Shown here: one piece after another, positions 1 through 12,463 of the stretch
How the letters are laid out: each line of letters starts with the position of its first letter
How positions within the stretch are numbered: the first letter of the stretch is position 1
NCBI GenBank assembly: GCA_040357565.1
Contig: JBDODJ010000006.1
Reading direction: 5' to 3' (one strand)
DNA from: Cercozoa sp. M6MM
Taxonomy: Eukaryota; Protista; Endomyxa: Ascetosporea
DNA: 64,000 nucleotides
Notes under the pieces: generated by a model
Told to the model about the DNA's origin: nothing
The model's database searches: none
What the model saw: the letters and a program-made list of their open reading frames with translations, nothing else
Made by a program: the position numbers and the translations under genes

Positions 1-3000
1 CCCCCCCATAGACCTACCCATGTACCCTATGTGCAGTGGTGGGCGAGCTGCTGCGTCGTCGAAAGTTGCTCTGCGTGGACGACAAACCCAAGCAGTCCAA
101 ACACCAGGTCCGTTTGTACACACCTAACCCTTCCATATGATCCGTACAACGACCTCCCCCTCTTTATACGCAGAGACAGATGACGCGTCGGCCCGGGAGT
201 TCCGTCACAGTGACGTCCTCGCGTGTCGAGCAGCTTGATGTATCCATTTTCTAGCTGTGTGTCCATTTGCACCGTCAGTTTGTCCCGTCCATTTGCACTG
301 TCCGTTTGTGCCACCCACCTGCAGAAACAGCGGCAAAAACAGCAGCGTCGGCAGAAGCAGCAGTCGCAAAAGCAGCGTCGGCAGCAAGAGCAGCAGCGAC
401 GCACTGCCGCCAGCGATGTAGCCTCTCTCTCCCCCACCTTAAACATGTCATTCCCCTGTCCAATGGACGGTTTATTTGTTGTATGTTTGTCCATTCTGTA
501 CCACACGTGGACAGGCTTTTTTTGACGGCGACGATGAGGCGCTGTCGCAGCATCTGCAGCAGCAGCGCGAGCTGCACAAGACCGAGCAGCGCATCGAGCA
601 GATTGAGCGTACCTTTTCCTGTGTATCTATGGTCACTGTGACTGGTCACTTTGCTCACTCTGAGTGGTCACTTGATCGCTATGTTCACTGGGTGGTCACG
701 CTGTGTGTGCAGAGACGCAGGCGCTGCGCGAGTTCTCGGCCGACAAGGGCGCCACTGTGAGTTTTATACATCTGAGTGCGGTGGCTGACTGAGGTGTGAC
801 TGACTGACTGACTGACTGACGTGTGACTGACAGATCAGACGCATCTACGGTGGCTCGGGCGCCATGCCGCAGAGTGGCCACGTGCCCTCCAAGGAGGCGG
901 GCAAACAGAAGGCCAAGGACGGCACCTGCATGTTTGAGGAGGCATTCGAACTCGAACTGCCCGAGTGTACTGATCTCTTTGTGACCACACTGATCGCCTC
1001 TATAATCACTGAGTGGTTTCTGAGTGGGCATGTGATCACCGAGTGATTGTTGTGCAGTTGCCGAACGCAGCGAGGACGCCGAGTACCTCGAGGTGCACCT
1101 GCCGCCACCGCCTCAGAGTGTGTCGCGCGAGGCTGGTCGCTGCCTCAGCGTTTCGGACAACCTGCCGGCTTGGGCTCGTACCTCCTCTCTTTCCTTCCTC
1201 GGACAGCCTTGTTCATGTCGAGGTACTGAGGTCCGAGGAGTAGATAGACTTACCTGTGTGCAGACAAACCCTTCGTCGACTTTGGCTGCACGGAGTTGAA
1301 CGCCATGCAGAGCACTGTAGCCTCCAGATTTTCCCTACTCTTTACGCCTCTTTCCCTCTCTCCACCCCCCCGTTGCCCACAGGTGTACAGCACGGCCTGG
1401 AAGACCAACCGAAACCTGCTCGTGTGCGCACCGACTGGTGGTACCTTTCCGCTATGATTGAGGTGTGATCACACGTGTGAGTAAGCCCACGTGTGAGTGA
1501 GTGACCACCTATGTAGCCGGTAAGACCAACGTCGCCATGCTCAGTGGTACTTTGTACAGCTTACGACCTACCTAGTAGTACCTCTAGGGGGTATGGACAC
1601 ACGTGTGTGTTGCAGTGCTCCGTGCCGTGTCGCAGAACCTGCAGCCTGGCACCAATCGGTACAACTGGACCGTGTGCATGTGTACAACTAGACCAACAAA
1701 CGGACTGTATGAATGTACGGTACAAATTGGACAGTGTGGCCTCGGCGGACACGTTCAAAATGGTCTACGTCGCACCGATGAAGGCACTGGCGCAAGAGGT
1801 GGTCGCCAAGTTCTCCAAGCGACTCAGCTCGCTCGGTACGTTGTACTGCCTTGTGTCCGTCTGGACCAATGTCCTTGTACCAATCTTGTATCGACTCAGG
1901 CATCGTGGTGCGCGAGTGCACTGGCGACGTGCAGCTCTCGCAGGCCGAGATGACTGGGTAGCACCACCTGACTGACTGAGTGACTACATGGGAGTGACCA
2001 CTGTGAATGACTGAGTGAGGAACCACTGTGACTGAGTGACCACGACTGAGTGATCACTGTGATTGAGTGACTGGACACGTGGACAGTGCGCACATGCTGG
2101 TGACGACGCCGGAGAAGTGGGACGTCGTCACGCGCAAGGGTATTGCTGCTATCCCCTGAGTGATCGCCTGACTGACCACCTGACTGACCACCTGACTAAC
2201 CACCTGAGTGAACTTTGCGAATCTGTGCAGGTGGGGAAAACGTTGACGCTGTGCAGTTGCTCATCATCGATGAAGGTAGCTTCTTTACCCCCTTTACCCC
2301 TTTACCCCTTTACCCCTTTACCCGCCCCTCACACCCCCATTCAGTGCACCTGCTGGCCGAGAGTCGCGGTGCCGTTATCGAAACGATCGTGGCACGCACG
2401 CAGCGTCTCGTCGAGACACAGCAGGTAGGCCACTCTCTGCGACCACGTGGGTGGGTGACCACCCTCCAGTCCCACGCTGTATGTGTTACCACGTGTGCAG
2501 ACGGTGAAACGTATCGTGGCACTGTCGGCTACGCTGCCGAACCGTGAACATGTGGCGCAGTTCCTCGGTACACCACTGGGACACACGTGCCTGGGTGGTG
2601 GACACGTGCCCACTGACTATTGTGACGGTGTTGGTATGACGGTGTCACGTGTGACCTACTGACAGGTGTGACGCACGAGGGTCTGTTCCACTTCGGTCCC
2701 GAGTATCGTCCCGTGCCGCTCGATATGCACTGTGAGTTTACCCCCTTGCCCCCCCCCCCCATTCACCCCCATCTTACCCCTTACCCGTGCAGTCATTGGT
2801 GTCAAGACCTCGCTCAAGGAGGTACATTGTATTGAATGGTAAAGGAGGCCACTGTTCCGATAGTTAAGGGTGCGTCTGTGTGTGTGTGTGTGTGTGTGTA
2901 GCGTCAGCGCAGCAAGGACCTCAAGGACGACAAGGCGTGGCACATCGCAAGACGCTCCGTGTGCGACGAGGAGAACCAGGTATGTCCTGCGTGCGTCTTG

Positions 3001-4355
3001 TCCGCCTACCATCTTGTCCTAGTGGACCGTCTGGATGGACCATCTGTACTGTGTCCAAATGTACCACTATCTGTACAGGTCATGATCTTTGTTCACTCGC
3101 GCAAGGAGACGACGCGCATCGCGCAGGATTTTGTGCGGCGGTACCTCTTACCCCCTCTTACCCTCCCTCCTCTTAATCCCTCTTACCCCCTTTGCCACCG
3201 CTTATCCCTTTAACCCCTTTTACCTCTTTTATACCCCAATAGAATGAGAGAACACGGTCTCGAGAAGGCCTTTTCCATCGGCGAGGGCAAGCACGTACCA
3301 ACTACTCAGTGGTCACTGTTGATCGATCACTGATCGATCACCGATCGCTGCATGTGCGCAGTTGCCACGTTTCGCCTCGCTGCGCAAGAAGATCGGCCGC
3401 GTCAAATCGACGGTGCTGCCGGCGCTCATGGAGTCCGGCGTCGCCATCCACCACGCCGGTACGCGTCTTTACCCCCCTCTTACACCCCCCCCCCTATTAC
3501 CCCCACCTGCAGGTCTGCACCGACAGGACCGTGGCGCTGTCGAAGAGGCCTTCGCCAAGGGCTACGTGCAGGTTTGCCCTTACCTCTTTAGCCGTTTATT
3601 CCGTTACCCCCCCCCCCACCCACCCCCGACCCCCGCGTAGGTGGTGGTGTGCACGGCGACACTGGCCTGGGGCGTCAATTTGCCAGCTCATACGGTACGT
3701 GTTGCCCTGCCTGGGCACAGACAGACCGTCTGAGGGTACAAATGGACCATGTGTGTGACAGGTGATCATCCACTCGACCGACGTGTACCTGAGCGATGCG
3801 CATCCGGCCGGGTGGTACGACCTCTCGATCCTCGACGTGCAGCAGATCTTTGGCCGCGCCGGCCGACCGCAGTTCGACACCTCCGGTACACACGGACTGT
3901 ACAGATGGACTACACAGATGGACTGTCCATACACACTGCGCGTCCTTAACTAAACACTATACACAGGCGAGGCATACCTGCTGACGCAGGTGCAGAAGGT
4001 CGGACACTTTGTTCAGCAGATGACGGCGGTAGTTTTACCCCCCCCCCCCCTACCCCTTTACTCCCCTTTACCCTCCCCCCGCCCGTGTGCAACAGGCACT
4101 GCCGTTGGAGAGTAGTTTCCTCAAGCAAGGTCATACGCTGGCCAACCACCTCAATGCCGAGGTATACCCCCCTCCATTTACTCCTTCTTAATTCCTTACC
4201 CCCTGCGTGCAGTTGGTACTGGGCACGGTGACCTCCATCGACGACGCCGTGCAGTGGCTCTCGTACACCTACCTGTACGTCCGACTGGTCGCCAATGGAC
4301 GGCACTACCAGGTGCTGTTGTTCCCCCTTATCCCTTGTTCCCGTTCACCCCCCTC

Positions 4356-4392
<37 letters not shown>

Positions 4393-11198: not shown

Positions 11199-11676
11199 GA
11201 GAGTCACGATGCCGATGCGCGACTACTTCTCCGACCGTGCCAACGTGCTGGCGCAGGTTCCGCGTGTGCTGCAGGCATGCGTTGACGTTGCCGTCTGTCT
11301 GGGCAGGTATCCATGTGTGTCTCCTTCTCATATACTATCCAAGCATCAACGTGTATGTGTGTGTGTGTGTGTGTGCCTGTGTGCAGGAGCGATGCCGTGC
11401 ACGCGTGCATCGACTTGTACCAGCAGTGCATGCAGGTACCTCGCGGTTCTGTTAGATGGATCACCCCTCCCAAACATACATACCATGTGCGGACAGGCCT
11501 CGTGGGACATGCCGCATGCCATGGTGCGCCGACTGCCGCACCTGCTGCACGCGCACGACGACGACGGCCGGCAGCGCGACCCGTCGCAGAACTACCAGTC
11601 GCAGCAGCAGCGAGACAAAGCGCCTGTCATCTGCGGCCTCAAGGACACGCACACTGAGGTGTCGCTTTCCCTTGTT

Positions 11677-11712
<36 letters not shown>

Positions 11713-12463
11713 GTTTAATGACATGTACAACGCAGGGCACATCGGTGACTGCTTGCAAGGCACGTGAGGAGCGTTTCCGCCGCTTCGTCCAGGCGGCGGA
11801 GCAGTCGATCGGCAAGGATGTGATGGGCACGATGCTCAAGGGCAGCAAGTCGCGCCAACTGGAGCAACTCCTGCGCCAGCACCTGCTGCTTAACGATGCG
11901 CAGGTGCACGACGTCACTGCGGTGCTGCAGTGTCTGCCGCGTGTCTCTGTACGCGGCAAGGTCACCGTTAACACCGCCGACGACCTCGCGCTGAGTGTAA
12001 ACGTCTCCAGCAAGACTGCCAGGAAACCGGCCGAGGCCAAGAAGGCGGCCAGTGCGCCCATCAAGCAGGTTCTCTCGAACGGCGGTGTCTGGACGCCGGC
12101 CTGGCGCATGGGCGCGCCGCTCTCCTTCTTTCTTGTCGTCTCAGTTGGCAACACTCTCCTTCAGCTGCGTCGACTCAACCTGGGACGGTACAGCTCTGTC
12201 TGAGTTTCACTAATCTTATATATATAGATCTATATATCTATATACATGTATGTGAGGGCATAGATGTATTGTGTATGTTGAGCAGCAAACCTGCCACGGT
12301 CACGGTGCACGTGCCGCAGGAACTCCGCGGACAACGCGTGCAGGTCTCGGTGCGTCCCGACGCCTACATGCAGCTTGACCGACGAACGCACGTGTCGCTA
12401 CCGGTGGAACCAGCGGAGACCAAGCCGGACGCTGCTGCCTCTTCGACGACCCGAGGTGACTGA
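1..12463 (+). CDS. ASCC3: Activating signal cointegrator 1 complex subunit 3 / Slh1-type tandem Ski2-like helicase (5' end outside window; 81 GT-AG introns in window)
   Basis: Hand-spliced exons give two helicase cassettes: LNAMQS..NLLVCAPTGAGKT, VYVAPMKALAQE, LVTTPEKWD, IIDEVH, LSATLPN, HHAGL, TATLAWGVNLPAH and QIFGRAGRPQFD; then APTGSGKT, DEVH, RPVPVEVHVSGYPGRAYCPRMALMNKP and VFVSSRRQTRLTA (ASCC3/Slh1 rather than Brr2 signature), QMMGRAGRP, plus Sec63-like regions. Stop TGA at 12461-12463. Confidence 0.93.
8787..8930 (+). repeat. (CCCTA)n-like degenerate repeat filling an ASCC3 intron; contains a 10-N gap
   Basis: Directly visible ctaccctaccctaccctactcctacc... between donor GTACTC at 8787 and acceptor CCAG at 8930. 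Confidence 0.9.
11074..11196 (+). repeat. (GT)n microsatellite in an ASCC3 intron, with an assembly gap
   Basis: Direct inspection; source of the spurious VCVC/HTHT ORFs. Confidence 0.97.

What the first reader, a model, noticed from the sequence alone, without database searches (positions are those of the whole stretch)
108..12290. Rewired 5' splice-site code: GTAC-dominated donors, +5G largely lost, with compensation rules
Seen (hand count, 81 ASCC3 donors): 36 begin GTAC, none begins GTAAG, and only 22 have +5G. Of 62 GTA donors only 8 have +5G. Of 19 donors lacking +3A, 14 have +5G, and the other five (near 4312, 5366, 9801, 9935, 11659) are all preceded by exonic AG. A pyrimidine tract often follows the donor rather than preceding the acceptor. 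The same pattern appears in the other genes. Established: +5G normally pairs with U1 and with the U6 ACAGAGA box and is among the most conserved donor positions after GT; TIA-1/Nam8 helps U1 via U1C at weak donors followed by U-rich tracts. Inference: this spliceosome accepts GTA, or GTnnG, or AG|GT, which implies altered U1/U6 snRNAs or protein-driven donor choice.
Basis: partly seen in the sequence, partly recalled or inferred. Interest (0 to 1): 0.78.

Follow-up and report, generated by a model that had tools for sequence, protein, structure and literature searches.

The report
Amoeba splice donors lacking +5G signal
In this stretch of an intron-packed marine amoeba genome, the G at the fifth base of predicted introns, normally a main splicing signal, is no commoner than chance, so intron starts are likely read from a short G|GTA core helped by intron length and a pyrimidine-rich tract, a natural test of how little signal splicing needs.

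Summary
Two window exons match NCBI proteins of Cercozoa sp. M6MM (Lemnamoeba sinaloensis, Rhizaria) at 100% identity. My 81-intron ASCC3 model reproduces every count given. Two author-annotated genes agree: +5G in 12 of 47 donors. Overall +5G is 34/128 (27%) against 22-24% at unused GTs, and 91/128 donors fit neither known class (AG|GT, GTRAG). Two classes emerge: G|GTA (77%), with little signal at +4 to +6, and GT-non-A (23%), enriched for C+4, G+5 and T+6. Corrections: after GTA, +4C is not above unused GTAs in the same genes, so 'GTAC' is largely local bias, and the AG|GT rule fails in 3 of 5 independent cases. The window also encodes U1-C with substitutions near the donor duplex (L13M, T14V, D16G), but not beyond this organism's general divergence. 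U1/U6 and RNA junctions could not be examined. GT(A)-only donors, +4C donors and +3/+5 coupling each have precedents; this combination in an intron-rich genome was not found in print. The scan earlier noted a different atypical donor class on other DNA. New variant; interest 0.5.

The parts
33..12463 (+). ASCC3/Slh1 helicase gene, 5' end beyond the window, 81 modelled GT-AG introns (first donor 108, last acceptor about 12285)
   Evidence: Homologs; models; curated frame of 2120 aa
47702..54112 (+). FtsX-type ABC permease gene (P0273, Pfam PF02687), 42 author-annotated introns used as the independent donor set; the first 29 residues lie upstream of the region mapped
42671..43759 (+). U1-C (SNRPC/Yhc1) gene, 5 introns; zinc finger with Y8I, T11K, L13M, T14V, D16G against human numbering
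   Evidence: Pfam zf-U1 E 7e-11; PDB U1-C E 1e-10; P0123 maps 251/251; conservation
40462..42456 (-). Likely SF1/BBP branch-point binding protein gene, head-to-head with U1-C; KH loop GARG where the three PDB hits shown have GPRG
   Evidence: Parser model; STAR/KH hits including BBP E 1e-9 and SF1 E 1e-8
4312..4320 (+). Example donor lacking both +3A and +5G, rescued by exonic AG (CAG|GTGCTG)
   Evidence: homology and parser agree
49669..49677 (+). Annotated donor with none of +3A, +5G, -1G or AG (GAT|GTGCCC): counter-example to the three-rule code

Best explanation
The predicted introns here are GT-AG introns whose donors carry information at -1 to +3 (G|GTA) and almost none at +5, and they are likely chosen by an otherwise standard major spliceosome that leans on short intron length and a downstream pyrimidine-rich tract instead of +5G pairing. 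Shown: two donor classes. G|GTA (77%) has near-background +4 to +6. GT-non-A (23%) adds C+4, G+5, T+6, more exonic AG and a stronger tract (0.80 vs 0.69 pyrimidine). Inferred: U1 needs only a short duplex around the junction, the span where U1-C holds the backbone (-2 to +3 in the human structure). When +3 mismatches, extra pairing at +4 to +6 and at the exon end, plus a tract-binding protein (TIA-1/Nam8-like or C-rich-binding), would make up the loss. Hand-off to U6 would be permissive, not demanding a +5G pair. Introns of 47-184 nt (median 64.5) would be defined across the intron. The altered U1-C may loosen or retune the duplex, but this is a lead only.
For: +5G at background, 0.03 bit, against 0.27 bit in plants (PMC10599564). 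91/128 donors fit neither AG|GT nor GTRAG, classes that cover 45.1% and 53.6% of human sites (PMC11732430). Non-A class: +4C 17/30, +5G 20/30, +6T 22/30, AG 11/30, all above unused GTs. Tract stronger after non-A donors, p 0.004. No branch-point motif clearly above shuffles except weak CTGAC, 7/128 vs 2.1. Narrow length range. A standard U1 end already ranks the true donor best among nearby GTs in 90/124 cases. U1-C contacts the backbone at -2 to +3 and tunes mismatched sites (PMC4383343). Donors reduced to GT(A) are known in Paramecium and the Bigelowiella nucleomorph (PMC2483917).
Against: The compensating class prefers +4C (57%), not the +4A (20%) that pairs with standard U1, which fits a changed U1 better. 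Mean predicted duplex with a standard U1 end is only -4.4 kcal/mol, and 32/128 donors lack both -1G and +5G. The tract enrichment is modest and as much C as U. U1-C divergence (3/18 conserved sites) is not above ASCC3 divergence (135/600; p 0.8), and 8 of 87 other U1-C segments diverge as much. All counts come from one 64-kb window.
Confidence: 0.55

Rival explanations
1. U1 snRNA has co-evolved, most likely to the ACGUAC form found in Mastigamoeba. A G-C pair at +4 would then replace the lost pair at +5, with the altered U1-C accommodating it.
For: +4C is 56-57% in both classes and significant in the non-A class, whose consensus C-G-T at +4 to +6 is the complement of that U1 form. That end raises mean duplex strength to -6.5 kcal/mol. 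Entamoeba combines changed U1, atypical donors and a diverged U1-C. L13M is absent from 87 other distinct segments; Plasmodiophora (P0142) and Nonionella (P0128) keep L13-T14-H15-D16.
Against: Discrimination against decoys is unchanged (AUC 0.84 vs 0.83; 86 vs 90 of 124). +4C after GTA is not above in-gene decoys. Two of three +4C lineages examined by Roy and Bowser keep standard U1.
Confidence: 0.25
2. The U6 ACAGAGA box, or its modification system (METTL16, SNRNP27K), is altered or lost, which would remove selection for A+4 and G+5.
For: +4A is only 12% and +5G 27%. In GTA donors without +4C, +5C is 22/43 vs 13/55 in GTAC (p 0.006) and 10/57 in intronic decoys. METTL16 loss shifts preference away from +4A (PMC10581693).
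Against: Exonic decoys show the same +5C rate (11/21), and the secondary set gives 8/21. METTL16 loss favours +4U, only 18% here. The box was invariant in 240 species. G+5 is still selected in the non-A class.
Confidence: 0.1
3. Nothing special to this organism: weak donors of this shape are typical of intron-rich Rhizaria or short-intron protists, or prediction error flattens +5G.
For: Total +3 to +6 information (1.52 bits) lies between the 0.5 and 1.9 bits quoted for weak-donor lineages (PMC2483917; their positions counted may differ). Proteins of this organism are generally divergent. No rhizarian donor logo was available to me.
Against: The strict and annotated sets give the same +5G (25/95, 95% CI 18-36%), with strong -1G and +3A signals and a single open frame, so error is unlikely. 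The GT(A)-only precedents have 19-25 nt, AT-rich introns, unlike these.
Confidence: 0.1

Closest known systems
GT(A)-only donors of Paramecium tetraurelia and the Bigelowiella natans nucleomorph (PMC2483917, passages)
   Same: Donor signal reduced to about GT(A); no branch-point signature; high intron density
   Different: Those introns are 19-25 nt and 84-88% AT. These are 47-184 nt in a 53% GC genome and keep a second class in which +5G is strongly selected.
+4C donors of Mastigamoeba (GUGCGC, changed U1), Thecamonas and Mamiellales (standard U1), and the Entamoeba U1/U1-C co-divergence (10.1101/2022.06.08.495308, passages)
   Same: C at +4; the non-A class here (GTGCGT and similar) resembles them; diverged U1-C as in Entamoeba
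   Different: The Mastigamoeba, Mamiellales and Entamoeba consensus sequences quoted keep G at +5 (not stated for Thecamonas); here 77% of donors are GTA with 14% +5G. U1 unknown here.
Two-class donor model of animals and plants, AG//GU versus //GURAG, and GENSCAN 5'/3' compensation (PMC11732430, parts 1-2 of 7; PMC10599564)
   Same: Compensation among donor positions; +3G:+5G coupling; U5/U6 score anticorrelation (rho -0.22, p 0.012)
   Different: 71% of donors fit neither class, and -1G and +5G are independent (p 1). The main trade-off is +3A versus +4 to +6.
Yeast U1-C (Yhc1) Leu13 mutants that bypass Prp28 (PMC3985668, PMC4436669, passages)
   Same: Leu13 is changed here, along with Thr14, a backbone contact
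   Different: In yeast any residue at 13 is viable and the effect is indirect; whether Met is a bypass residue was not in the passages seen; no functional data here.

Membership tests
Major (U2-type) spliceosomal introns | GT...AG termini that restore an open frame | tested here: met
   128 of 128 modelled or annotated introns; open frames
Major (U2-type) spliceosomal introns | Donor consensus G|GTRAG with +4A and +5G enriched | tested here: not met
   GTRAG 6/128; +4A 12%; +5G 27% vs 22-24% at decoys
Major (U2-type) spliceosomal introns | Removal shown in RNA | not testable with these tools
   No reads could be laid; 47 introns rest on the authors' transcript-trained annotation (PMC11069148)
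Minor (U12-type) introns | Near-invariant RTATCC donor | tested here: not met
   GTATCC 3/128; -1G 66%
Minor (U12-type) introns | Strong conserved branch point | tested here: not met
   TTAA[CT] 11/128 vs 10.1 in shuffles
Two-class U5/U6 donor system | Most sites are AG//GU or //GURAG | tested here: not met
   91/128 are neither
Two-class U5/U6 donor system | Exonic and intronic scores anticorrelated | tested here: met
   rho -0.22, p 0.012, although -1G x +5G p 1
Co-evolved U1/donor systems (Entamoeba, Mastigamoeba) | U1 5' end changed to complement the donor | not testable with these tools
   No genome held; no Rfam hit in the window; duplex test indecisive
Co-evolved U1/donor systems (Entamoeba, Mastigamoeba) | U1-C diverged beyond background | tested here: inconclusive
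   L13M unique among 87 segments, but 3/18 vs 135/600 background
U1-C (SNRPC/Yhc1) | zf-U1 domain with Cys6, Cys9, His24, His30 and Arg21 | tested here: met
U1-C (SNRPC/Yhc1) | Sole U1-C ortholog of the genome | not testable with these tools
   No genome; one search found only P0122 but cannot see a canonical paralog
Introner-derived introns | Families of near-identical introns | tested here: not met
   The most shared 10-mers are simple repeats in at most 11/128 introns; the authors also report no Introner signal (PMC13746701)

The most novel reading that the evidence does not exclude
An intron-rich eukaryote (10-13 introns per gene) has dropped the +5G requirement through a co-evolved U1 snRNP: a changed U1 5' end reading C at +4, a U1-C rebuilt at Leu13/Thr14/Asp16, and possibly a relaxed U6 or Prp28 checkpoint. 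This would be a natural version of yeast bypass mutants, and a donor code outside both known classes.
Probability: 0.25. Interest if true: 0.75.

Novelty: new variant of a known kind. Interest (0 to 1): 0.5.

Why it matters
The +5G pair with U1 and then U6 is central to models of donor choice and proofreading. A cultured amoeba with a public genome, many introns per gene and no overall +5G signal allows a direct test of whether snRNA change, protein change or intron definition alone can replace it. The first test, an snRNA search plus a genome-wide logo, is a one-day computation.

Tried and rejected
No whole genome is held. No RNA holder was listed; this is no evidence either way. Rfam found nothing in the window. 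The annotated ASCC3 protein was not retrieved, since the search covered only 120-2000 aa. An alignment of 24 exons to a homolog was scrambled and not used. The codon model included the ABC gene out of frame; this affects only the hybrid's picks in divergent stretches and was corrected. Parser-only models of other genes were noisy. Keeping 57 of 127 predicted introns (donor posterior 0.9 or more) gave +5G 19/57, GTA 38 (8 with +5G), non-A 19 (11), GTAAG 2; some are probably wrong, so they were not pooled. Single-sequence folding of the U1-C exon was uninformative (pLDDT 53). The metagenome scan gave 9 loci and no close relative. By eye, 7 of 8 apparent donors in L004 have +5G (unverified, lineage unknown). 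Rejected: U12-type identity, Introner origin, +4C as a proven signal in the GTA class, and U1-C divergence as statistically exceptional. For the U1-C table, 11 of 150 sequences were dropped for not matching the single zinc-finger pattern, and only the best 150 of 363 hits were listed. The scan holds no other notes on this genome.
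Full report
Source. An exon at 42762-42920 and one at 48954-49256 match, at 100% identity, NCBI proteins named Cercozoa sp. M6MM. That strain is described as Lemnamoeba sinaloensis (Apofilosa, Rhizaria): 53% GC, 10-13 introns per gene, abundant AC:GT repeats, 99.5% GT/AG introns (PMC13746701 and PMC11069148, passages). In the passages found by my terms, neither paper discusses donor positions beyond GT. 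The four supplements held as text had no hit for 'splice' or 'snRNA'. Figures are not held, so a logo in a figure cannot be excluded.

Observation. I modelled ASCC3 with three methods that impose only GT/GC..AG: profile alignment to an HMM from 51 of 120 homologs, a codon-model parser and a hybrid. Ten hybrid introns were replaced by hand with eleven, knowing the finding. Two sets are free of my edits. The 48 introns where homology and parser agree give +5G 13/48. The 47 author-annotated introns of the ABC permease and U1-C genes give +5G 12/47. Pooled, n=128: -1G 66%, +3A 77%, +4C 56%, +5G 27% (CI 19-35%), +6T 47%, +7T 57%.

Controls. Unused GTs in the same introns (502) and exons (626) have +5G at 24% and 22%, so +5G carries no overall signal (0.03 bit), while -1G and +3A are highly enriched. 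Given GTA, +4C at donors (55/98) matches unused GTAs (54/111, 30/51) and exceeds only intergenic DNA (56/148, p 0.006). 'GTAC-dominated' is therefore mostly GTA selection on a local bias. The 30 non-A donors are different: +4C 17, +5G 20, +6T 22, exonic AG 11, each well above decoys, with a more pyrimidine-rich tract (0.80 vs 0.69, p 0.004). The AG|GT rescue is a tendency (7/10 vs 24/118) with three annotated exceptions. -1G and +5G are independent (p 1), and 91/128 donors are neither AG|GT nor GTRAG. The tract after the donor exceeds that before the acceptor (0.69 vs 0.61, p 1e-5), and no clear branch-point motif was found. A noisier set of 57 of 127 predicted introns in nine other genes shows the same pattern.

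Trans-acting lead. The window encodes U1-C itself, head-to-head with a likely SF1/BBP gene. Among 138 other U1-C zinc fingers, none has Met13, Val14 or Ile8, and 2 have Gly16. The rhizarians Plasmodiophora and Nonionella keep Leu-Thr-His-Asp. Thr14 contacts the donor backbone, U1-C contacts span -2 to +3 and tune mismatched sites (PMC4383343, passages), and Leu13 changes bypass Prp28 in yeast indirectly (PMC3985668, PMC4436669, passages). Against this: 3/18 conserved sites are changed vs 135/600 in ASCC3 (p 0.8), and 8/87 other segments are as divergent. The ASCC3 baseline is inflated by redundant homologs, so the test is inconclusive rather than negative. Gly19 and Gly20 are common elsewhere.

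Mechanism. Shown: the two classes, their dependencies, the tract and the short lengths (47-184 nt, median 64.5). Inferred: a short U1 duplex around G|GTA suffices. Mismatch at +3 is paid for by pairing at +4 to +6, exonic AG and a stronger tract. Length and composition would supply the rest, and U6 hand-off would be permissive (0.55). Changed U1 (0.25) is favoured by the C-G-T preference of the compensating class, but duplex scoring did not separate it from standard U1. Changed U6 or METTL16 loss (0.1) and a lineage-typical or erroneous pattern (0.1) remain.

Comparison. Donors reduced to GT(A) are reported for Paramecium and the Bigelowiella nucleomorph, both with tiny AT-rich introns (PMC2483917, passages); Blepharisma 15-nt introns also lack +5G (PMC13685798, passages). 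+4C donors occur in Mastigamoeba with changed U1 and in Thecamonas and Mamiellales with standard U1, and Entamoeba has changed U1 with diverged U1-C (10.1101/2022.06.08.495308, passages; supplements not seen). Position coupling is established (PMC11732430, parts 1-2 of 7; PMC10599564, passages). The U6 box was invariant in 240 fungal genomes (PMC10581693, passages). Passages of PMC11347168, PMC3033335, PMC12730881 and PMC10245619 gave no usable rhizarian donor frequencies. Nine searches found no report of this donor pattern in this organism; most subscription journals are not covered. That +5G is near 80% in humans and near 50% in plants is recalled, not from a call.

Verdict. The pattern is real and unusual: new variant of a known kind. 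The snRNA claim is open, and relatives were not measurable. Interest 0.5.

Noticed in passing
window, introns of genes on both strands (e.g. 2284-2310 +, 57032-57588 -): TTTACCCC and TTACCC lie almost only on the sense strand of genes (31 vs 1; 68 vs 5). This is the reverse complement of the TAA[G]n telomere-like motif that PMC13746701 found inside contigs, so it may be an intronic C-rich element or a strand-biased repeat; other simple repeats show the same bias.
   Followed up: partly
window 3736, 3899, 4969, 7058, 7563, 8720, 9322, 9364: A 12-base motif GTACA[AG]ATGGAC recurs in ASCC3 introns in both orientations and forms the donor at 7563 and 9322.
   Followed up: partly
window 40462-43759: Likely SF1/BBP and U1-C genes, the early readers of the two intron ends, sit head-to-head about 215 bases apart, probably sharing a promoter. 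The SF1 KH loop reads GARG.
   Followed up: partly
window 42679-42760: The annotated U1-C isoform P0122 starts at Met13 and lacks Cys6 and Cys9; the L13M change itself creates this start codon. It may reflect retention of intron 1.
   Followed up: no
window 53964-54134: The annotated end of P0273 appears to read through a probable last intron and shift frame relative to my parser model.
   Followed up: no
window 13406-18601 (-), 24680-28470 (+), 33250-38040 (+), 44060-45840 (-), 46060-47390 (-), 56110-58800 (-), 63180-64000 (-): Other intron-rich genes. Names are recalled from the translations and were not checked: double AAA ATPase, phosphatidylserine decarboxylase with C2/EF-hand, RhoGEF-PH-ankyrin-FYVE protein, NSUN methyltransferase, dienelactone hydrolase, TFIIIC subunit, tryptophan synthase beta.
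   Followed up: no
L004:2863-3307: Eukaryotic contig with a canonical-type U1-C whose intron starts GTGAGT; by eye most donors on it have +5G.
   Followed up: partly
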